Shown here: piece after piece, positions 987 to 48,906 of the stretch | Numbering within the stretch: the first letter of the stretch is position 1 | How the letters are laid out: each line of letters opens with the position of its first letter | Source of the DNA: Escherichia phage JLBYU10 | Direction: 5' to 3' (one strand) | Length of the DNA stretch: 50,987 nt | Sequence record: OK272486.1 | Notes under the pieces: generated by a model | Databases searched by the model: none | The model's input: only the letters and a program-made list of their open reading frames with translations | What the model was told of the DNA's origin: nothing | Made by a program: the position numbers and the translations under genes

Positions 987-1463
987 TTAGCTATTTGTGC
1001 TGTTATCACCTTTGTAGAATCGTCCGCCTGGTTCGTAGTCTGAATTTTTGACTACGCGCAACATCTCGTATTTGTCGCAACGGGTAGTAAGAGGCTTACC
1101 GTTAGAATCAAACCGCAGATCTGGACGACAAAATGATGCGCGGTATCCTTTGCATCCATTATATTTGTAGTCGTTATGCACCTTTTGTGCTCCAGCGGCT
1201 GAAATCATACCACGCTTTCGCCATTGGTTAACGACTTGCTGAGATACGCGTAGACGTCGAGCCATAGCAGGAACACCGCCATAATACTCGATCAGAATAT
1301 CCAAGCGAGATTTCAGGCTTGCTTTTACCTCATCTCGCAGGATAAGAAATCCGGTTCGGTGTTTTCGTGGCTTTTTGTCTTTACCTCGTCGCGTTCCGTT
1401 GTTACCGTTAATAGTGCGCTTGTCGATCTCACCCGTAGAAACCGCAATTCGTGCATCTTTCAT
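987..1463 (-). CDS. HTH DNA-binding protein (Cro/YdaS-like helix-turn-helix)
   Basis: ORF track; segment GGVPAMARRLRVSQQVVNQWRKRG looks like an HTH; basic N-terminus. Confidence 0.45.
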   Translation of the reverse strand: MKDARIAVSTGEIDKRTINGNNGTRRGKDKKPRKHRTGFLILRDEVKASLKSRLDILIEYYGGVPAMARRLRVSQQVVNQWRKRGMISAAGAQKVHNDYKYNGCKGYRASFCRPDLRFDSNGKPLTTRCDKYEMLRVVKNSDYEPGGRFYKGDNSTNS

Positions 1464-5616: not shown

Positions 5617-6732
5617 ATGAAAAATGTAAAAATTACAGATGAGCAATTCAAGATCGAACGGGCGGCGGGTAAGACATATAAACAGATCGCTCAAGAGTAC
5701 GGAATGAATGTTAGAAGCGTCGAGCGTCGCGCGGCGCGTCTTGCAAAGCAAGGCCAGGTATCCACCATTGGAGCGCCTGGTTTTGGCGTTCATGGTGAGT
5801 CAGTAATGACTGACAAAGAAGGCAACATAATCCTAAAGTGGACTAAAACCAGCAAGGATAAAGAGCAATTAGAAGCATTAATGCGCGCAGCAATGGAGGC
5901 ATTTAGCGAGGAAGTGCCGCGATTAGATCCGGTTCCATTACAGGAGCGCGACTATAACGAAACGCTTTCCTTGTATCCGATCTTTGACATGCACTTAGGC
6001 GCTATGGCCCATAAGCACGAATGCGGCGAAAATTGGGATACTGCCACGGCAGAGCGCGTTATGAATAACTTTATCGACTATGCTTTAATGTGCGCACCGG
6101 ATAGCGAAAAGGCTGTCATCCTGATTGGTGGCGATATGCTGCATAGCGACGGCCTGGAGGCGGTTACACCTGCAAGCGGTCACGTACTGGATCAAGATAG
6201 TCGATATGCAAAATTGGTTTACGTTGCCATCCGTGCAATGCGACGCGCAATCAATAAAATGTTGTTAAAGCATAAACATGTTGAAGTCCAGATCGTAGAG
6301 GGAAATCATGACCAATCAGGAATGATTTGGCTGCGCGCAGCAATGGCGGCAGCATATGAAAACGAGCCGCGCGTTTACGTTGATGTTTCACCTCGCGTTG
6401 TGCACCACACGCAATACGGAAAAACTTTCCTTGCGTACCATCACGGGCACACAGTGCGTAAACCGGAGACTTTGCTAATGATGTGCGCGTCAGATTGGCG
6501 GGAGGACTTCGGAAACTCAAAAACGATGTATGCGCACGTAGGGCACTGGCATCACCAGACCGTGACAGAAACGTCGCTTGGCATCGTTGAGGTGCATAGC
6601 ACCCTGGCGGCAAAAGACGCATACGCCGCGCGCGGTGGCTGGAGATCTCGACGCCGTGCGGCGGTTATCATTTACGACAAAGAGCATGGAGAGGTGGGGA
6701 GATTTGTTCACTATCCAGAAATGATGAATTGA
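5617..6732 (+). CDS. calcineurin-like metallophosphoesterase with N-terminal HTH
   Basis: GDMLHSD and VEGNHD phosphoesterase-type motifs; N-terminal YKQIAQEYGMNVRSVERRAARL HTH-like; start chosen inside ORF 5467..6732. Confidence 0.45.
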   Translation: MKNVKITDEQFKIERAAGKTYKQIAQEYGMNVRSVERRAARLAKQGQVSTIGAPGFGVHGESVMTDKEGNIILKWTKTSKDKEQLEALMRAAMEAFSEEVPRLDPVPLQERDYNETLSLYPIFDMHLGAMAHKHECGENWDTATAERVMNNFIDYALMCAPDSEKAVILIGGDMLHSDGLEAVTPASGHVLDQDSRYAKLVYVAIRAMRRAINKMLLKHKHVEVQIVEGNHDQSGMIWLRAAMAAAYENEPRVYVDVSPRVVHHTQYGKTFLAYHHGHTVRKPETLLMMCASDWREDFGNSKTMYAHVGHWHHQTVTETSLGIVEVHSTLAAKDAYAARGGWRSRRRAAVIIYDKEHGEVGRFVHYPEMMN

Positions 6733-14819: not shown

Positions 14820-15029
14820 TCAGATACGCCCATACAGATCACAGACTTCGTTGATAAAACAGCGTTGAGACTCTTTATCGTCACGCTCAAAAATTGCGCG
14901 GCATTCAAACTTAAGATTATGCACGATGACTACAACCATATTTTCAGGCATTGAGCGGTTATAGCGTCGCGCGTCAGTGATTAAAACATCCATACCCATC
15001 TCATGTGCTTTCTTGATCACATCCAACAT
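14820..15029 (-). CDS. hypothetical protein
   Basis: ORF 14820..15053 trimmed to ATG with GGAGAAG RBS. Confidence 0.4.
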   Translation of the reverse strand: MLDVIKKAHEMGMDVLITDARRYNRSMPENMVVVIVHNLKFECRAIFERDDKESQRCFINEVCDLYGRI

Positions 15030-15283
15030 TTTTTCTTCTCCTGCAATAAGCAAACATCATTGATAAAATCAGCACGGCCCTTAATGTTGCTGATGTGGAA
15101 CGTCTTTTCAGCGTACAGGCCATCACCTTCAATCACGATCATTACGCGAGTCGGTTTATTCACGGGCGCACACGAAAAGAGTGGTCGCGCCGGAAGAAAT
15201 TTAGTAGCCACATCCAGGTTAGCCCTGGCGGCCCTGCAAAATGCCTCCGCCAGATCCAAATCATTTTCGGTAATCACCGCCAT
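15017..15283 (-). CDS. hypothetical protein
   Basis: ORF track. Confidence 0.4.
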   Translation of the reverse strand: MAVITENDLDLAEAFCRAARANLDVATKFLPARPLFSCAPVNKPTRVMIVIEGDGLYAEKTFHISNIKGRADFINDVCLLQEKKKCWM

Positions 15284-15555
15284 TACTTCTTGATCTCCTC
15301 ACTGATAAATTTCAGCACCTGACGCAAGAAAACCTCGTTGTTGATAGTCGCTGGCAATTCTTCCTTCACTTCTTGCGGCAGATAGATATTGCCATGCCAG
15401 GTCAAGCAATCGTAGTTGATACGATAAGAGCAAAGCCACTCGCAATCGTTATCTGCTTCCCAAATGCAGAGTTGCAGAACATCGCCAAAATCTTCAACAG
15501 TCAGATCCAGACCGTGACGCTTAGCGAAATTGAAAGTGGTTTTGCTGATGTTCAT
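15283..15555 (-). CDS. hypothetical protein, first gene of leftward block
   Basis: ORF track; CAGGAGATAGC RBS. Confidence 0.5.
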   Translation of the reverse strand: MNISKTTFNFAKRHGLDLTVEDFGDVLQLCIWEADNDCEWLCSYRINYDCLTWHGNIYLPQEVKEELPATINNEVFLRQVLKFISEEIKK

Positions 15556-15589
15556 TGCTATCTCCTGAGCGGTTCGTTTTGATGTGTGT

Positions 15590-15633
15590 AATGTACCCGA
15601 TCAGACGGCCTGAGTTTTAACAAAAAGTGCTAT
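15590..15633 (-). promoter_or_regulatory. Motif-type promoter-like unit (minus): ATAGCACTTTTTGTTAAAAC, 22-bp spacer, TACATT
   Basis: Only motif copy heading the leftward gene block; not preceded by a gene. Confidence 0.5.
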
Positions 15634-15660
15634 TTGACGGTTAGCGCCAGGATTGTGATC

Positions 15661-15752
15661 GAAATAATCAAAAGTAATCATTCGTAATCAAATAACGTCA
15701 AAATGATGATTGCCTTTGCAAACTTGATGAGAAAAGTAATCACGTTTAATCA
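15661..15752. repeat. Phased short direct repeats (TAATCA at 10-bp spacing, then GTAATCA/TTAATCA)
   Basis: Three TAATCA copies exactly one helical turn apart, two more related copies ~50 bp downstream; upstream of leftward promoter. Confidence 0.5.
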
Positions 15753-15899
15753 TTGGTTGCAGGGGAGATAGTGAAACCCTCCCCTCTTGCCTCACTTTTC
15801 CGCCTGGCTGTCAGTGGTTGTTATGTTCCGTTCCCGCCTGTTCTTTTGTTGACCTTCCGCAAAATACGATAACAAAAAATAACAAACAATACCTATATA

Positions 15900-16165
15900 A
15901 TACATTGAAAAATAAGGATTATTTATTTATATGTATCTATATATTCTCTTTTGTTATCTTGGTTATTGTGGTATTTGGTGGGGGTATATAGTTTTTGTGT
16001 ATCTGTATGTGTGTATGGGTATGTAGGGGCATATATATCTATATGGCACTTTCCGCGAGAAAACTTCGATAACAGGCAATGATAACATTGATTTATAAGG
16101 AAAAATAACGCCAATATTGTTATTGTGCCACCATGTAAAATTGATAAAACACGCGGGAACAAGAA
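15900..16165. repeat. TG/TA-rich non-coding element, copy 1 (homologous to 45000..45240)
   Basis: Shares TTATTTATTTAT-TGTAT...CTTTTGTTATCT...TTGTGGT..TTTGGT and GGGAACAAGAAAAA blocks with copy 2. Confidence 0.6.
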
Positions 16166-16172
16166 AAAACAG

Positions 16173-16201
16173 TTGACACATTAAATAGCATTATTGATAA
16201 T
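16173..16201 (+). promoter_or_regulatory. sigma70-type promoter (TTGACA, 17 bp, GATAAT)
   Basis: Canonical hexamers with 17-bp spacer ~30 bp upstream of first rightward early gene. Confidence 0.6.
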
Positions 16202-16230
16202 GCCGACACCTAACAACCAGGAGGTAGAAA

Positions 16231-16695
16231 ATGAGCGAGCAATCATTCACTGACACGCTGCGCCGTGCCGCTATTATGCTGGCTAATGGCGAGGAAGAGA
16301 CGATCAAGATTCCTGACGCGTATTTGCAGGTCCACATGTTCGGCAAGAAGTCGGCAAGCAATCCGGCGGCCTACATTCGCCAGATCATGAGTCGAGTGCC
16401 AGAAGTCGCCGAGCGGGGGAGCGTATCCGTTACCCGTGGCGTTTACGGGCCGGAAGATGAAAACTTCGGTAGCACTTTCTACGAGGTGCGCATTGTTGAA
16501 GGCCGTCGCAAGGTTTACAACAAAGATGCACTGGAAAGGGCAGTACGCCAGGCTAAGCGCAAGGTTGCAGAGGCGATCATTGATATGTCACCAAACCTGG
16601 CAAACTATGCGCCGGAAGAGTATGAAACATTATCAAAGGCCGTCGCTGACTTTCACGCGATGATCAAAAAAACTTTCCTGGAGGATGAGCAATGA
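16231..16695 (+). CDS. hypothetical early protein
   Basis: ORF track; AGGAGG RBS; first gene after strong promoter. Confidence 0.55.
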   Translation: MSEQSFTDTLRRAAIMLANGEEETIKIPDAYLQVHMFGKKSASNPAAYIRQIMSRVPEVAERGSVSVTRGVYGPEDENFGSTFYEVRIVEGRRKVYNKDALERAVRQAKRKVAEAIIDMSPNLANYAPEEYETLSKAVADFHAMIKKTFLEDEQ

Positions 16696-16964
16696 AAAAG
16701 GCGTTAATCGGCGTTTTGGTGGCAATGGCATTCCTGACCGGATGCGAAGAAGATGGCGCGCATGTTGGCAATGTGCAGATGGCTAACCCTGGCGATGACT
16801 ACAGCGTAAGGGAGCTATTCACCGCCGATGGTTGCACTGTTTACCGATTCTATGACGGTCGCACTGTTTACTTCACCAACTGCAAGGGAACGACTAGCTG
16901 GGAAGTGTCGAAAAGCAACGGCAAAGGCACGAAAACAGAATACATGACCGTTGAGACAAAATAG
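16692..16964 (+). CDS. lipoprotein (possible superinfection-exclusion type)
   Basis: Signal peptide with lipobox FLTGC; ATGA overlap with upstream gene. Confidence 0.5.
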   Translation: MKKALIGVLVAMAFLTGCEEDGAHVGNVQMANPGDDYSVRELFTADGCTVYRFYDGRTVYFTNCKGTTSWEVSKSNGKGTKTEYMTVETK

Positions 16965-23113: not shown

Positions 23114-23641
23114 ATGGCTAAAAACGTTGAGCCTGCTGTAAAGGCATTAAATTTCAAAGAGTTATACAATAAAACTTATGGCGATATTGTTACGCTAAAT
23201 AACCGCCACAAGTACACGCCGGAACAGGTTTTTGATATGGCGATCCGCTATTTCACTTGGGCCGAAGAGAATCACATCCAGGCGGCTGAAACTGCTTCCT
23301 TTCAGGGTGACGTGTACGAGAGCAGAGTTTACAAGCCTCGCGTTTTCACGGTTAACGGATTCAGCTTGTATCTAGGCGTTACCGAGGCGGCTGTAAGCAA
23401 GTGGCGTAAAGAGCCTGGATTCTGCGATGTGATGGAGTTTGTTGATAAAGTAATTTACGAGCAAAAATTCCAGCTTGCGGCAAACAACATGATTAACGCT
23501 GGATTCATCGGTAAAGAGATCGGAGTAGAGAAGCCAGCGACAGTGAGCGTTGAGGCGAGCGCGGCAGCTAATGCAAGCATTGACGCAGTAACTGCCGATG
23601 AGGTGAAAGAGGCCGTGATTGATATTCTGGAGCAACTTTAA
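23114..23641 (+). CDS. terminase small subunit (putative)
   Basis: ORF 23072..23641 trimmed to Met with AAAGGAGG RBS; directly upstream of TerL. Confidence 0.5.
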   Translation: MAKNVEPAVKALNFKELYNKTYGDIVTLNNRHKYTPEQVFDMAIRYFTWAEENHIQAAETASFQGDVYESRVYKPRVFTVNGFSLYLGVTEAAVSKWRKEPGFCDVMEFVDKVIYEQKFQLAANNMINAGFIGKEIGVEKPATVSVEASAAANASIDAVTADEVKEAVIDILEQL

Positions 23642-25209
23642 TGATCATATGGGAAGATTTGACGGCGGCGCAAAAGCGAGCCATTAAAGAAATCAGTGAG
23701 CATTCATTCGAAAAGATGATCAGAATCTGGTTCCAATTATTGCAGGGGCAAAAATTCCAGAGCAACTGGCATTTTAGCTTATTGTGCAGTGAGGTAGAGA
23801 AGATCATCAATGGAGAGTCGCAGAATGTGATTTTCAACATTACGCCAGGTAGCGGCAAGACTGAGATTTTCTCGATCCACATGTCACCCTACGCGTCATT
23901 GAAAAGCCGGAAAGTGAGAAACCTTAACCTTTCGTTTAGTGATGGCCTTGTCCAGCAAAACAGCAACCGGATAAAGGAGATTATTGGTTCTCCTGAGTGG
24001 CAAGAGCTATGGCCTGGAAAACTGGCAAAGGCGAGCGCTAAAGATCTGATAGTCACCGAAGGCGGCAAGGTTAAATTGCAGGTTAACTCACGTTCTATTG
24101 GCGGCCAGGTAACAGGTTTGCGTGGCGGCTATATGGATGATGGTTTTACTGGTATGCTGGTTCTTGACGATCCAGACAAGCCGTATGATATGCTTTCTAA
24201 GGTCAAGCGCGAGGCTATTCACATGCGGTTAAAAAACACAGTGCGATCGCGTCGAATGAAAGACACCACGCCGATTGTTATGGTGCAACAGCGACTACAC
24301 GTTAATGATTCCACCTGGTTCATGCTTAATGGCGGAATGGGTGGTATTGAGTTTAAAGTCGTGAGCATTCCGGCGCTGGTTACGAAAGAATACCGCGAAA
24401 CGCTTCCTGATTGGTTGAAGCCTGAATTTGATCGTGATGTGCTGTCAAGTAAGCCAGTGATGATAGATGGCGTTGCTCATTATTCATTTTGGCCTGCGAA
24501 GGAAAGCGCGGAGGAATTGCTTGCATTGCGCAATGCAGATCCTTATACGTTCGCCAGTCAGTACCAACAGCAGCCAATCGCGCTGGGCGGGAACGTGTTT
24601 AAAACAGAGTGGTTCCAGTATTACGGCAGCGGCGAAAAATGCGCACTTCCTAAACCGGATCGCTTTGAATACACATTTATCACTGGAGATACCGCACAGA
24701 AGGCCGGAGAGCTTAACGACTATTCGGTTTTTTGTTATTGGGGGATGTATAAGAATCGCGTTTACTTCATTGATGGCATTCGCGGAAAGTGGGAAGCGCC
24801 GGATCTTGAATTAAATTTTATTGCCTTCGTTAACCAGTGCTGGAAGCGCAATAAGGAGTGTGGCAGCTTGCGACGTATCCACATTGAGGATAAGGCCAGC
24901 GGCACGGGTTTGATTCAGGGGGCCAAAAAGAAGATCCCGATTGATATAAATCCCGTTCAGCGAAGCAATGACAAGGTGACGCGAGCAATGGACGCCGCGC
25001 CAGTAATGAGGGCCGGACGTGTGGCACTGCCAGAAAATCACCCCATGCTGCCTGAGATACTGGCAGAGGTTGCAGCATTCACTTTTGATGATTCTCATCC
25101 CCATGATGATATTGTCGATAATATAGTTGATGCTGTTAACGTCGAAATGAACTTGGCAGATGATCCGGTGGCAAGGATGAAAAAGCTGGCTGGTCTACGC
25201 AATAAATAG
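23641..25209 (+). CDS. terminase large subunit
   Basis: 522 aa; Walker A-like PGSGKTE, Walker B-like LVLDDPD; position before portal. Confidence 0.75.
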   Translation: MIIWEDLTAAQKRAIKEISEHSFEKMIRIWFQLLQGQKFQSNWHFSLLCSEVEKIINGESQNVIFNITPGSGKTEIFSIHMSPYASLKSRKVRNLNLSFSDGLVQQNSNRIKEIIGSPEWQELWPGKLAKASAKDLIVTEGGKVKLQVNSRSIGGQVTGLRGGYMDDGFTGMLVLDDPDKPYDMLSKVKREAIHMRLKNTVRSRRMKDTTPIVMVQQRLHVNDSTWFMLNGGMGGIEFKVVSIPALVTKEYRETLPDWLKPEFDRDVLSSKPVMIDGVAHYSFWPAKESAEELLALRNADPYTFASQYQQQPIALGGNVFKTEWFQYYGSGEKCALPKPDRFEYTFITGDTAQKAGELNDYSVFCYWGMYKNRVYFIDGIRGKWEAPDLELNFIAFVNQCWKRNKECGSLRRIHIEDKASGTGLIQGAKKKIPIDINPVQRSNDKVTRAMDAAPVMRAGRVALPENHPMLPEILAEVAAFTFDDSHPHDDIVDNIVDAVNVEMNLADDPVARMKKLAGLRNK

Positions 25210-44841: not shown

Positions 44842-44872
44842 CTTCAATACCCCTTAGTTGTTGTTGGCTGTA

Positions 44873-44915
44873 ACTATACACGATCCGGCAAGCCGAGTTT
44901 AGCAAAAAGTGCTAC
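44873..44915 (-). promoter_or_regulatory. Motif-type promoter-like unit (minus): GTAGCACTTTTTGCTAAAC, 21-bp spacer, TATAGT
   Basis: Reverse-complement motif heading leftward lipoprotein/receptor-binding operon. Confidence 0.5.
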
Positions 44916-44999
44916 TTGTTATTTTTTGTTTTCCGGTGCTATCGGATTTAAGACGGCGTAAATTTAGCGCAAATTTTAGCCAACATAAGAACAATAAAT

Positions 45000-45240
45000 A
45001 ATCAATAAAATATGTATATACATATAAAATCAATAGTTTATTTATTTATGTATGTGTATTTGTTTTTTTCTTGTTATCTGTGTTTCTTGTGGTTTTGGTT
45101 GTTTGTGGTGATTTTTCTTTCTGAGTATCTGTATGTGCCATCATTCATGTGTATGTATATAATCCGGCGTATCTGAGAGAACAAGGGAACAAGAAAAATA
45201 ACACATATTAATCATTAACTTACGCGTCAAATTTGTTTTA
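45000..45240. repeat. TG/TA-rich non-coding element, copy 2 (homologous to 15900..16165)
   Basis: Shares TTTATTTATTTATGTATGTGTATTTGT...CTTGTTATCTGTGTTTCTTGTGGTTTTGGT and GGGAACAAGAAAAA blocks with copy 1. Confidence 0.6.
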
Positions 45241-45285
45241 TTGCCATCTGAGAACGCTTAGAAAACAGAAAAAACAAAACAACTA

Positions 45286-45313
45286 TTGACTAAATCAATC
45301 AAATGGCTACAAT
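45286..45313 (+). promoter_or_regulatory. sigma70-type promoter (TTGACT, 16 bp, TACAAT)
   Basis: Near-canonical hexamers ~30 bp upstream of exonuclease gene. Confidence 0.55.
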
Positions 45314-45343
45314 GCACACACAAAGCAACGAGGAGCATTAAAG

Positions 45344-48627: not shown

Positions 48628-48906
48628 TTAAGCCCATTCTCTAATCGGCTGATCTAACTCAACCACGTAGCCGTTAAAAATTACGGCATCAAACTTATCA
48701 TCAATGATTCGCACATTGACGAAATAGCCGTCGTTCTTTCGCGCAATCTCATCGCCATCGTCAGATCGTGCAATTACTGTGTAAGTATTGCCGATTACAT
48801 CGAGCAGGATTGCATCCTGAATGGATTCGTTTTCGTTCCATTCAATTTCTTCCAGAAAGGCGGAAAACTCCGCCTTGTCTAAAAATTTCAGTGTTAAATC
48901 ACGCAT
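48628..48906 (-). CDS. hypothetical protein (tail-fibre accessory?)
   Basis: ORF 48628..48951 trimmed to ATG overlapping stop of tail-fibre gene. Confidence 0.4.
   Translation of the reverse strand: MRDLTLKFLDKAEFSAFLEEIEWNENESIQDAILLDVIGNTYTVIARSDDGDEIARKNDGYFVNVRIIDDKFDAVIFNGYVVELDQPIREWA

What the first reader, a model, noticed from the sequence alone, without database searches (positions are those of the whole stretch)
15661..15752. Helically phased TAATCA repeats next to the leftward promoter
TAATCA occurs three times at exactly 10-bp spacing (about 15665, 15675, 15685), with two further related copies (GTAATCA, TTAATCA) about 50 bp further on, followed by a GGGGAG..CTCCCC hairpin. Same-face phased repeats are typical of iterons or activator/repressor binding arrays.
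Basis: seen in the sequence. Interest (0 to 1): 0.5.

Follow-up and report, generated by a model that had tools for sequence, protein, structure and literature searches.

The report
Phased repeats at the phage packaging site
Five exact TAATCA hexamers, lined up on one face of the DNA helix in a T1-like coliphage, are real and non-random, and they sit where related phages start packaging DNA, so they are more likely docking sites for the small terminase than origin iterons or promoter operators.

Summary
TAATCA occurs five times on the + strand (15665, 15675, 15685, 15737, 15747). It is the most clustered hexamer in the genome: 5 in 90 bp, against at most 4 in 200 simulated genomes.

The window is a Warwickvirus (T1-like Drexlerviridae). 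The array lies in the 675-bp divergent intergenic region, 82-169 bp upstream of the leftward promoter start.

In seven relatives whose sequence here cannot be aligned, the same slot still holds short repeats. An unbiased 5-mer test picks AATCA/TGATT as the top shared word (27 seen, 4.8 expected, present in all seven).

The physical genome ends of T1, TLS and SU57 fall inside this module. For TLS, the restriction sites in the record match the published pac mapping. Four further GenBank records, one with the TAATCA module itself, end within about 12 nt of the GGGGA box beside the array.

Best explanation (about 0.5): the array is the recognition part of the pac site, bound by the P22-gp3-type small terminase, with cleavage at or near the "hairpin".

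Rivals not excluded: a regulator array for the leftward promoter, an origin accessory, bent DNA.

By-product: the unexplained 21-nt T1-family repeat is a perfect, fixed-position class II marbox.

The parts
15665..15690 (+). Proximal cluster: three exact TAATCA hexamers at 15665, 15675 and 15685, 10 bp apart
   Evidence: Invariant in 19 close relatives. One change, A15690G, in tonnikala.
15695..15700 (+). Degenerate fourth in-phase unit, ACGTCA
   Evidence: CGTCA is retained while 15694/15695 vary. The related locus L013 has five (C/T)GTCA units at about 10-bp spacing.
15704..15712 (-). Inverted AATCA core (TGATGATTG) between the two clusters
   Evidence: Invariant in relatives.
15737..15752 (+). 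Distal pair GTAATCA / TTAATCA, 10 bp apart and 52 bp (about 5 turns) from the third proximal copy
   Evidence: T15737C in 3 of 19 relatives. Type B relatives have an inverted pair, TTAATCA-n2-TGATTAA, in the same place.
15756..15761 (+). GTTGCA word. In T1 the reference genome starts exactly at TGATT|GTTGCA.
   Evidence: T1 junction. The same TGATT-GTTGCA word is in L012 and L043.
15761..15785 (.). G-box and weak hairpin AGGGGAG-N11-CTCCCCT; candidate pac cleavage zone
   Evidence: Fold; no covariation. GenBank records end here: XY3 (type A) at the window equivalent of 15770, and haarsle, G29-2 and L014 within about 12 nt of their GGGG.
15636..15842 (.). Type A mosaic module. Homology to other genera stops at 15636. 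Many Warwickviruses share 15556-15842 and then diverge.
15590..15635 (-). Leftward promoter PL: 21-nt family repeat (a marbox-type element) at 15635->15614, an 18-nt spacer, and the -10 TACATT at 15595->15590
   Evidence: The repeat is described for TLS in PMC11447400.
15283..15555 (-). First leftward gene (90 aa, phrog_6147, function unknown)
   Evidence: It is 97-99% identical in type B phages whose module is unrelated.
23114..23641 (+). Small terminase (TerS), the proposed binder; Pfam GP3_package (P22 gp3 type)
   Evidence: The large terminase follows at 23641-25209.

Best explanation
The TAATCA array is the recognition part of the phage's pac site, the place where headful DNA packaging starts.

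**Inferred mechanism.** The DNA-binding domains of the ring-shaped small terminase (TerS, 23114-23641) contact successive hexamers, which face the same side of the helix. There are three or four contacts in the proximal cluster and two in the distal cluster, five turns away. The DNA is thereby bent or wrapped on the TerS ring. The large terminase then makes the first cut just to the right, around 15755-15790 at the GTTGCA/GGGGAG box. Packaging proceeds rightwards, towards the DUF7174 operon and the terminase genes.

**Shown:**
- the array is real, unique in the genome and non-random;
- its AATCA/TGATT core is the shared feature of this slot across the Tempevirinae and T1 relatives tested;
- the mapped or deposited genome ends of relatives fall in or at the edge of this module.

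**Inferred:**
- TerS is the binder;
- the hexamers, rather than another word in the module, are what it reads;
- the cut in this particular phage lies at the G-box.
For: 1. **Uniqueness.** This is the densest AATCA/TGATT cluster in the genome (6 per 100 nt, next best 4) and the top hexamer cluster genome-wide. That fits a single-copy cis site.

2. **Family-wide word.** In seven mutually unalignable versions of the slot between the PL repeat and the G-box, AATCA/TGATT ranks first of 512 5-mers. It occurs 27 times against 4.8 expected, at least twice in every type, Poisson p 2.5e-12. Repeat periods are 10 bp in two types, including this one, and 9 bp in type B; three other types show mainly shorter periods (4-7 bp) and one shows no clear period.

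3. **Mapped ends.**
   - The T1 reference begins with a 2800-bp terminal-redundancy feature. Its ends lie in the homologous region, 162 nt upstream of the first leftward gene, at ...GATGTGATT|GTTGCATGG.
   - TLS position 1 is the authors' pac assignment. The record's first HindIII site (5876) and EcoRV site (2733) match their 5,882-bp pac-HindIII distance and about 2.7-kb EcoRV fragment. TGATT follows at +9, +19, +24 and +29.
   - The SU57 end was set at an abrupt read-coverage step in this UTR. The authors state that pac lies in the corresponding region of T1 and other T1-like phages.
   - AATCA/TGATT within +-150 nt of the record junction: T1 7 against 1.6 expected, TLS 7 against 1.7.

4. 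**Record ends at the G-box.** Four records end within about 12 nt of the G-box: haarsle TGTGTG|GAGGGG, G29-2 GGAGGGGAT|, L014 GAGGGGAATC|, and XY3, which carries this very TAATCA module, GCAGGGGAGATA| (window equivalent 15770).

5. **Not part of the core element.** The duplicated AT-rich/TGTTxx core at 44.9-45.3 kb has no such cluster, so the array is not part of that element.

6. **Precedent.** P1 pac has seven TGATCA/G hexamers in clusters of four and three around an IHF site and the cut, and forms a bent complex (PMC10028697; PMC11260489). TerS rings are thought to wrap bent DNA through weak cooperative contacts (PMC7617512).

7. **TerS present.** A P22-gp3-type TerS gene is in the window.
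Against: - There is no binding, footprint or terminus data for this phage or any type A phage, apart from where one GenBank record happens to end.
- The resolution of the T1 and TLS end mapping is perhaps +-100 bp. The TLS authors fixed the exact base by resemblance to P22 pac.
- Several record ends may have been copied from one another by convention rather than measured.
- The known pac site of a gp3-type TerS (P22) is a single asymmetric 22-bp site inside the terS gene, not a repeat array (PMC11447400 text). Here TerS is encoded 7.4 kb away.
- In SU57 (Braunvirinae) AATCA/TGATT is barely enriched (3 against 1.6 expected). The repeated word there is ATTGCA/TGCAAT.
- Hexamer conservation among close relatives is only weakly better than the flanks: 1 of 30 against 16 of 95 variable columns, plus one more change in tonnikala.
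- The TerS co-variation test was uninformative. Every phage with a different module is about 75% diverged genome-wide.
- The array also lies directly upstream of a promoter, so a regulatory role, alone or in addition, is not excluded.
Confidence: 0.5

Rival explanations
1. The array is a set of upstream operator or activator sites for the leftward promoter PL, or for the divergent early promoters. A phage or host DNA-binding protein would polymerise head-to-tail on direct repeats one helical turn apart. Possible binders are an OmpR/PhoB-type response regulator, or a small Xis/Cox/Apl-like phage protein. It would switch leftward transcription on or off.
For: - The array sits at -82..-169 from the predicted PL start.
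- Direct repeats one turn apart are typical of Apl and other recombination directionality factors acting between divergent phage promoters (abstract of PMC7498355, seen).
- GTAAT-N5-GTAAT resembles the CpxR box GTAAA-N5-GTAAA (consensus recalled from memory).
- Many small early proteins of unknown function are encoded on both sides.
Against: - Seventeen other promoters of the same type in the genome have no such array.
- No regulator was identified. The only annotated HTH protein (987-1463, Cro/YdaS-like, below Pfam cut-offs) is 14 kb away, and HTH proteins of this kind usually read inverted repeats.
- Fur is rejected: the best match is 12 of 19, which occurs 142 times genome-wide.
- There is no IHF consensus in the module.
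- The CRP-like TGTGA half-site is not conserved.
- -82 to -169 is far upstream for a class I activator.
- This reading does not explain why mapped genome ends fall here.
Confidence: 0.2
2. The array is an accessory part of the replication origin. The hexamers would be sites for an initiator or an architectural protein that help open the nearby AT-rich core, which is flanked by TGTTxx/xxAACA iteron-like repeats.
For: - The origin of T1-like phages is unknown (PMC11447400; PMC7718038).
- The same 675-bp region holds phage-specific TGTTxx/xxAACA repeats, an AT-rich stretch and, in relatives, a consensus IHF site, between divergent promoters.
- The phage encodes a primase with the zinc ribbon of primase-helicases, plus helicases.
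Against: - The hexamers are too short and too closely spaced for classical iterons.
- They are about 60 bp or more from the iteron-like repeats and about 200 bp from the AT-rich stretch.
- The core element is duplicated at 44.9-45.3 kb without any AATCA cluster, so the cluster is not an integral part of it.
- No initiator is linked. The adjacent DUF7174 gene travels with the right half of the region, not with the TAATCA module.
Confidence: 0.12
3. There is no sequence-specific binder. The repeats are a relic of tandem 10-bp duplication, or they act only through intrinsic DNA curvature upstream of a strong promoter.
For: - A-tracts are roughly in phase with the hexamers.
- Predicted curvature peaks at about 15 degrees per turn at 15690, near the 98th percentile of the genome (wedge parameters recalled from memory).
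Against: - The curvature is not exceptional: the genome maximum is 22.8 and an A-tract control gives 28.
- The hexamers are identical while the spacers differ (AAAG, TTCG, AATA). This is the opposite of what a recent duplication would leave, and is not what neutral decay of an old one would leave.
- The AATCA/TGATT word, not just phasing, recurs in unalignable relatives, with variable spacing and orientation.
Confidence: 0.08

Closest known systems
Bacteriophage P1 pac site (PacA/PacB pacase)
   Same: Both have a short hexamer repeated in two clusters (P1: 4 + 3; here 3-4 + 2), and the cut lies within or at the edge of the repeat region (between the clusters in P1; to the right of both here). 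Both are thought to form a bent nucleoprotein complex, and both are unique in the genome (PMC10028697; PMC11260489). The hexamers differ by one base: P1 TGATCA/G against TGATTA, the reverse complement of TAATCA.
   Different: - P1 hexamers carry GATC and are controlled by Dam methylation; TAATCA has no GATC.
- P1 pac lies inside pacA. Here the site is non-coding and 7.4 kb upstream of terS.
- P1 has an IHF site between the clusters. No consensus IHF site is in this module.
- The putative cut here is to the right of both clusters rather than between them.
- The terminase families are unrelated (GP3_package here).
P22 pac and gp3-type small terminases
   Same: TerS here belongs to the same Pfam family, GP3_package, and packaging is headful from a pac site. 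The TLS authors noted AGATTT, resembling the P22 pac core. GATT is also the core of the TGATT repeats.
   Different: P22 pac is one asymmetric 22-bp site inside gene 3. Here there is an array of repeats in an intergenic region far from terS.
SPP1 pacL/pacR and lambda cosB R-sites (recalled from memory; the TerS wrapping model is in PMC7617512)
   Same: Several TerS-binding boxes on bent DNA lie beside, not at, the cleavage site. Packaging leaves in one direction.
   Different: The box sequences and proteins differ. Those sites are adjacent to or overlap the terminase genes.
Direct-repeat arrays for Apl/Cox/Xis-type proteins and OmpR/PhoB-type regulators
   Same: Direct repeats about one helical turn apart lie between divergent phage promoters (abstract of PMC7498355).
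   Different: No such protein was identified here. The other promoters of the same type lack arrays. This reading does not account for the genome ends.
Plasmid and phage origin iterons (lambda ori, P4 ori/crr)
   Same: Repeated direct sites in a non-coding region near an AT-rich stretch.
   Different: The unit length and period are far smaller. The more iteron-like TGTTxx/xxAACA repeats are a separate element to the right.

Membership tests
pac site (initiation site of headful packaging) | Lies at the physical end of the first-headful virion DNA | tested here: inconclusive
   Met for homologous modules in relatives: T1 (terminal-redundancy feature and record ends), TLS (restriction sites match the published mapping) and SU57 (coverage step). 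For a type A phage, the only evidence is that the XY3 record ends at the window equivalent of 15770. No terminus data exist for this phage.
pac site (initiation site of headful packaging) | Single copy in the genome | tested here: met
   It is the only TAATCA-N4-TAATCA locus, the densest AATCA/TGATT cluster and the top hexamer cluster genome-wide.
pac site (initiation site of headful packaging) | Specifically bound by the small terminase | not testable with these tools
   A TerS gene is present (GP3_package). The TerS/module co-variation test was uninformative because all phages with other modules are about 75% diverged throughout.
P1-type pac (hexamer clusters) | Hexamers contain GATC and are Dam-regulated | tested here: not met
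   TAATCA has no GATC. The type A module has a single GATC, at 15657.
P1-type pac (hexamer clusters) | IHF site between the two hexamer clusters | tested here: not met
   WATCAANNNNTTR has no exact match in 15636-15800. There are five matches elsewhere, as chance predicts.
Replication-origin iterons | Direct repeats of about 17-22 bp, usually about two turns apart, bound by a cognate initiator encoded nearby | tested here: not met
   The core is 6 bp and the period 10 bp. No initiator is linked, and the neighbouring genes have unknown function.
Replication-origin iterons | Immediately adjacent AT-rich unwinding element | tested here: inconclusive
   The AT-rich stretch at 15890-16045 is about 140 bp or more away. 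It is flanked by other repeats (TGTTxx/xxAACA) that fit better.
Promoter-upstream regulator array | Sites positioned to contact RNA polymerase, with a cognate regulator | tested here: inconclusive
   The array is at -82..-169. No regulator was found. Seventeen sister promoters lack arrays.
Fur box | At least about 13 of 19 matches to GATAATGATAATCATTATC | tested here: not met
   The best match in the module is 12 of 19; 142 such matches occur genome-wide.
Intrinsic terminator (for the hairpin) | GC-rich stem followed by a T-run | tested here: not met
   No terminator-like site was found in 15300-16400. There is no T-run on either strand.
Structured RNA (for the hairpin or the region) | Rfam match or covariation | tested here: not met
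   There is no Rfam hit above noise. The z-score is -1.8. There are no compensatory changes.

The most novel reading that the evidence does not exclude
The TAATCA/AATCA array and the adjacent G-box form a two-part pac site (recognition plus cleavage) placed deliberately in the upstream region of the main leftward early promoter and beside a candidate origin. Late in infection, a TerS filament on the array would both start packaging and shut down leftward early transcription. One nucleoprotein switch would then couple the end of early expression and replication to the start of packaging. It would also give the first sequence-defined pac element for Drexlerviridae.
Probability: 0.15. Interest if true: 0.7.

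Novelty: new member of a known kind. Interest (0 to 1): 0.55.

Why it matters
T1-like phages (Drexlerviridae) are classic generalized transducers and notorious laboratory contaminants. They are also heavily represented in new coliphage collections. Even so, their pac site has never been defined at sequence level. The TLS authors fixed it by resemblance to P22, and the SU57 authors state that it "was not identified".

If the phased AATCA-type repeats are what the small terminase reads, several things follow:
- Genome ends could be predicted from sequence.
- Records could be oriented consistently.
- Plasmids or cosmids that these phages package efficiently could be built.
- It could be tested how a P22-type TerS ring reads a repeat array.

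The work also shows that this 650-750-bp non-coding region is a conserved, multi-part control region. It holds a promoter, pac and a possible origin, and deserves experimental dissection.

Tried and rejected
- **Rfam:** a scan of 15000-16800 found nothing above noise.
- **Terminator reading of the hairpin:** rejected.
- **Small ORF 15688-15795 (-):** this is annotated in MikeNSara and NorthRox. The substitutions among 19 relatives show no third-codon-position bias (positions; codon phase worked out by hand), so it is treated as non-coding.
- **Fur box:** rejected.
- **IHF consensus:** absent from the module.
- **CRP half-site TGTGA at 15654-15658:** not conserved.
- **Fis:** no 15-mer with G...C ends and an AT-rich centre fits (by eye).
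- **Scans for the flanking G-box 20-mer:** only 3 viral and 2 metagenome loci were found, so conservation had to rest on GenBank phages.
- **Conservation among close relatives:** low power, because identity is 93-99%.
- **TerS/module co-variation:** uninformative, because module type follows overall divergence. This includes Jahat_MG145, labelled Warwickvirus but only about 77% identical to the window.
- **Curvature alone:** moderate, not exceptional.
- **Literature:** there is no transcript map of a T1-like phage. The T1 genome paper and the P1 pac papers are not held.

Full report
**What the window is**

Megablast of 15400-16400 finds 124 phage records. The best are Escherichia phages MikeNSara, NorthRox, atuna and tiwna at 98-99% identity, all Warwickvirus (Drexlerviridae, Tempevirinae), that is, T1-like virulent siphophages of about 51 kb. 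The window is essentially one complete genome.

The finding lies in a 675-bp non-coding region, 15556-16230. On its left is a leftward operon: a 90-aa gene at 15283-15555, then many small genes, a methyltransferase and a helicase. On its right is a rightward operon: a DUF7174 gene at 16231-16695, small genes, polynucleotide kinase and then, 7.4 kb on, the terminase genes.

**The observation**

TAATCA is present exactly five times on the + strand, at 15665, 15675, 15685, 15737 and 15747. The 10, 10, 52 and 10-bp spacings keep all copies within about 70 degrees of one helical face.

The hexamer is not enriched in the genome as a whole (45 copies, 36 expected), but the clustering is extreme:
- TAATCA-N4-TAATCA occurs three times, only here, against 0.41 expected even with one mismatch allowed.
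- Five copies in 90 bp is the largest same-strand cluster of any non-simple hexamer in the genome. None of 200 Markov-simulated genomes exceeded four.
- A degenerate in-phase fourth unit (ACGTCA, 15695) and an inverted core (TGATGATTG, 15704-15712) extend the pattern.
- The hexamers are identical while the 4-nt spacers differ. This argues for selection on the hexamers rather than a recent tandem duplication.

The hairpin (15761-15785) is real but weak as a structure. Its z-score is -1.8, it has no T-run, it shows no compensatory changes, and three relatives break it.

**The neighbouring promoter**

A 21-22-nt element at 15635->15614 is repeated 18 times in the genome, always pointing in the direction of the genes. 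It is the "intergenic 21-base repeat" (aaATAGCACnnnTTGnTAAAA) described for TLS, T1, Rtp and Rogue1. The TLS authors list its function as an open question (PMC11447400). In 15 of 18 copies a -10-like hexamer follows at a fixed distance. For PL this is TACATT at 15595->15590, which places the TAATCA copies at about -82..-117 and -154..-169. The rightward operon has a near-consensus sigma-70 promoter at 16173-16201.

**Conservation among close relatives**

About 59 GenBank records carry 15556-15842 at 93-98% identity. In many the homology ends at 15842. In other genera only 15556-15636, the promoter and leader, is alignable. The TAATCA module is therefore a mosaic unit bounded by the promoter repeat.

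Among 19 sequences, 1 of 30 hexamer columns varies against 16 of 95 flanking columns. Tonnikala adds one more hexamer change. This agrees with constraint, but its power is low.

**Distant relatives**

Using the 90-aa gene as an anchor, 43 IMG/VR loci were fetched. In the loci with T1-like synteny the intergenic region is again 650-750 bp, with the same order of parts:
1. PL.
2. A repeat-rich module.
3. A GGGGA box.
4. TGTTxx repeats.
5. A TCCGCA box.
6. Two xxAACA copies.
7. An AT-rich stretch.
8. More TGTTxx repeats.
9. A G/T-rich, partly palindromic stretch.
10. A second TCCGC box.
11. Two more xxAACA copies.
12. PR, followed by a DUF7174 gene.

The module sequences cannot be aligned with each other, yet each holds short repeats:

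| Module type | Repeats |
|---|---|
| Type B | TTATTCC x2 and GGAATAA x2 at 9 bp, plus TTAATCA-n2-TGATTAA |
| L013 | (C/T)GTCA x5 at about 10 bp |
| L015 | TGATTG/A x4 at 10 bp, in the opposite orientation |
| L043 | GATTGATTGATTG |

An unbiased test of all 512 strand-collapsed 5-mers over seven types ranks AATCA/TGATT first. It occurs 27 times against 4.8 expected, at least twice in every type, p 2.5e-12. The periods differ between types. What is shared is a word and its clustering, not strict 10-bp phasing. In this genome the cluster at 15666-15752 is the densest anywhere.

**The link to packaging**

- **T1.** The T1 reference record (NC_005833) opens with a 2800-bp repeat_region, the terminal redundancy. 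Its last gene starts 162 nt before the record's end and its first gene starts at 539. The physical ends therefore lie inside the homologous intergenic region. The junction reads ...GGAATAATCACGATCATGATTGATCTCTAATGATGAGATGTGATT|GTTGCATGGTGTGCAAC...GATGTGATTGTTGC...AATGATTGTGAGAGGGGGG. The word TGATT-GTTGCA recurs in other types, and in the window as ATCATTG-GTTGCA at 15756.
- **TLS.** The authors mapped pac by restriction analysis: a pac-HindIII distance of about 5,882 bp and an EcoRV fragment of about 2.7 kb. In the record the first HindIII site is at 5876 and the first EcoRV site at 2733. Position 1 is therefore their pac. It is followed by AGATTTTGTGATTGAAATTGATTTGATTTGATTAGATTTG.
- **SU57.** The end was placed at an abrupt read-coverage step "in a UTR". 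The authors state that pac lies in the corresponding region of T1 and other T1-like phages, but that it was not identified. That end sits at the right edge of SU57's module.
- **Other records.** Four more records end within about 12 nt of their G-box. One is XY3, which carries this TAATCA module and ends at GCAGGGGAGATA|, the window equivalent of 15770. BEK1-23 and Jahat_MG145 end 90-150 nt further right. These ends may not all be independent measurements.

**Interpretation**

The most economical reading is that the module is the pac site. The TAATCA/AATCA repeats are its recognition elements for the small terminase (Pfam GP3_package, 23114-23641). The GTTGCA/GGGGA box at its right edge is the cleavage zone, with packaging running rightwards.

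This has a precedent in P1 pac. P1 has seven TGATCA/G hexamers in clusters of four and three, an IHF site and the cut between them, and a bent complex (PMC10028697; PMC11260489). It also fits the model in which DNA wraps around the TerS ring through weak cooperative contacts, favoured by bent DNA (PMC7617512). Predicted curvature over the array is moderately high, about 15 degrees per turn, near the 98th percentile (parameters recalled from memory).

It differs from P1 in several ways: no GATC in the hexamers, no consensus IHF site in the module, a non-coding location far from terS, and a different TerS family. It differs from P22, the model for this TerS family, whose pac is a single 22-bp site inside the terS gene.

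I give this explanation about 0.5.

**Rivals**

- **Regulator array for PL (0.2).** This fits the geometry and the precedent of helically phased direct repeats between divergent phage promoters. It leaves unexplained why only one of 18 sister promoters has an array, and why genome ends fall here. Fur, IHF and CRP were tested and rejected.
- **Origin-accessory role (0.12).** This is suggested by the neighbouring iteron-like, AT-rich core and by the fact that no origin is known for these phages. However, that core is duplicated upstream of the exoVIII-erf-ssb operon (44.9-45.3 kb) without an AATCA cluster.
- **Curvature only, or neutral repeats (0.08).** This does not explain the recurrence of the same word in unalignable relatives.

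These roles do not exclude one another.

**Novelty**

Pac sites built from repeated terminase-binding elements are a known kind of site, so this would be a new member. The specific proposal is, as far as the held literature shows, new. It says that Drexlerviridae pac is an AATCA/TGATT repeat cluster beside a G-rich cleavage box, in the big divergent intergenic region. It is directly testable.

**By-product**

The family's 21-nt repeat matches the published marbox definition 5'-gcannwwntgnnaaa-3' exactly (PMC12052159). There are 18 exact hits in the window against 1.5 expected, and all of them are the repeats. Every copy is in the forward orientation. In 15 of 18 a -10-like hexamer starts exactly 20 nt after the 15-mer. 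This puts the box centre near -40, inside the -36 to -55 range that paper uses for class II MarA/SoxS/Rob promoters. No held paper links the two. This suggests that T1-like phages drive most of their operons from Rob/MarA/SoxS-type class II promoters, or use a phage protein that imitates them. That would answer the question posed in the TLS paper.

Noticed in passing
window 1478, 3967, 5038, 8294, 10456, 11130, 13820, 14326, 15630, 16964, 18375, 19696, 20990, 25209, 29846, 33598, 39460, 44912: The 21-nt repeat of T1-like phages has no known function (PMC11447400). It matches the published marbox definition gcannwwntgnnaaa exactly. There are 18 hits against 1.5 expected, all pointing the same way as the genes. 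In 15 of 18 a -10-like hexamer starts exactly 20 nt downstream, so the box centre is near -40, the geometry of class II MarA/SoxS/Rob promoters. No paper linking the two was found.
   Followed up: partly
window 15800-16170; also L006-L045 and T1, TLS, SU57: The centre and right of the intergenic region are built the same way in all relatives. TGTTxx repeats and inverted xxAACA pairs flank an AT-rich stretch and TCCGC(A) boxes. The repeat flavour differs by phage: ATAACA here and in L011, GAACA in L013, TAAACA in L012 and L021, GAAACA in L043. Many relatives have a consensus IHF site (AATCAATAAGTTA) in the AT-rich part. This is a candidate replication origin or a complex early control element. 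L006 contains TGTTCACC, which I recall as the phage P4 type I iteron.
   Followed up: partly
window 44842-45343: A second large non-coding region lies between a leftward lipoprotein-like gene and exoVIII-erf-ssb. It repeats the same core: xxAACA pairs, an AT-rich stretch with an exact IHF consensus at 45028-45040, TGTTxx repeats, a TCCGG box, GAACA pairs and a sigma-70-like promoter. It has no AATCA cluster. It also contains the strongest predicted curvature in the genome (44969). Gaps of 400-750 bp occur at the same place in T1, TLS and SU57.
   Followed up: partly
window 15636 and 15842: Sharp mosaic boundaries. Homology to other genera ends exactly at the end of the 21-nt repeat (15636). 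This happens although the adjacent 90-aa gene is 97-99% identical at protein level in type B phages. The repeats may act as recombination junctions. A second boundary at 15842 separates two alternative right halves, each linked to its own DUF7174 variant.
   Followed up: partly
L180 (tunus) 379-681; L181 (XY3) 777-1079: In tunus and XY3 an extra 100-aa gene (VOG7190), with its own copy of the promoter repeat, is inserted between the 90-aa gene and the TAATCA module. The module stays next to a promoter repeat.
   Followed up: no
L184 (T1) 48675-48836 and 1-130: T1 has a second leftward promoter repeat to the right of its module (about 101-125) and a duplicated GATGTGATTGTTGC word. Leftward transcription would therefore cross the pac module. 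The T1 and TLS modules also contain 3-4 GATC sites in about 150 bp, several times the genome average, which recalls Dam control of P1 pac. The type A module has only one.
   Followed up: no
(records MG0656xx): Fifteen to seventeen records named 'Campylobacter phage' with host C. jejuni match this E. coli T1-like sequence at 81-89% identity. They look like mislabelled or contaminant coliphage assemblies.
   Followed up: no
window 15688-15795 (-), 15792-15905 (-), 15963-16181 (-): Some GenBank annotations (MikeNSara, NorthRox, EC167, tunus isolate) call small hypothetical genes inside this intergenic region. For 15688-15795 the substitutions among relatives show no third-position bias, so these calls are probably spurious.
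   Followed up: partly
window 987-1463 (-): A 158-aa Cro/YdaS-like HTH protein (its Pfam matches fall below the curated cut-offs) is encoded directly upstream of the primase and faces away from the SF2 helicase. It is conserved in T1, TLS, SU57 and Jahat as a 'transcriptional regulator'. Its DNA target is unknown. It is a candidate reader of the TGTTxx/xxAACA repeats.
   Followed up: no
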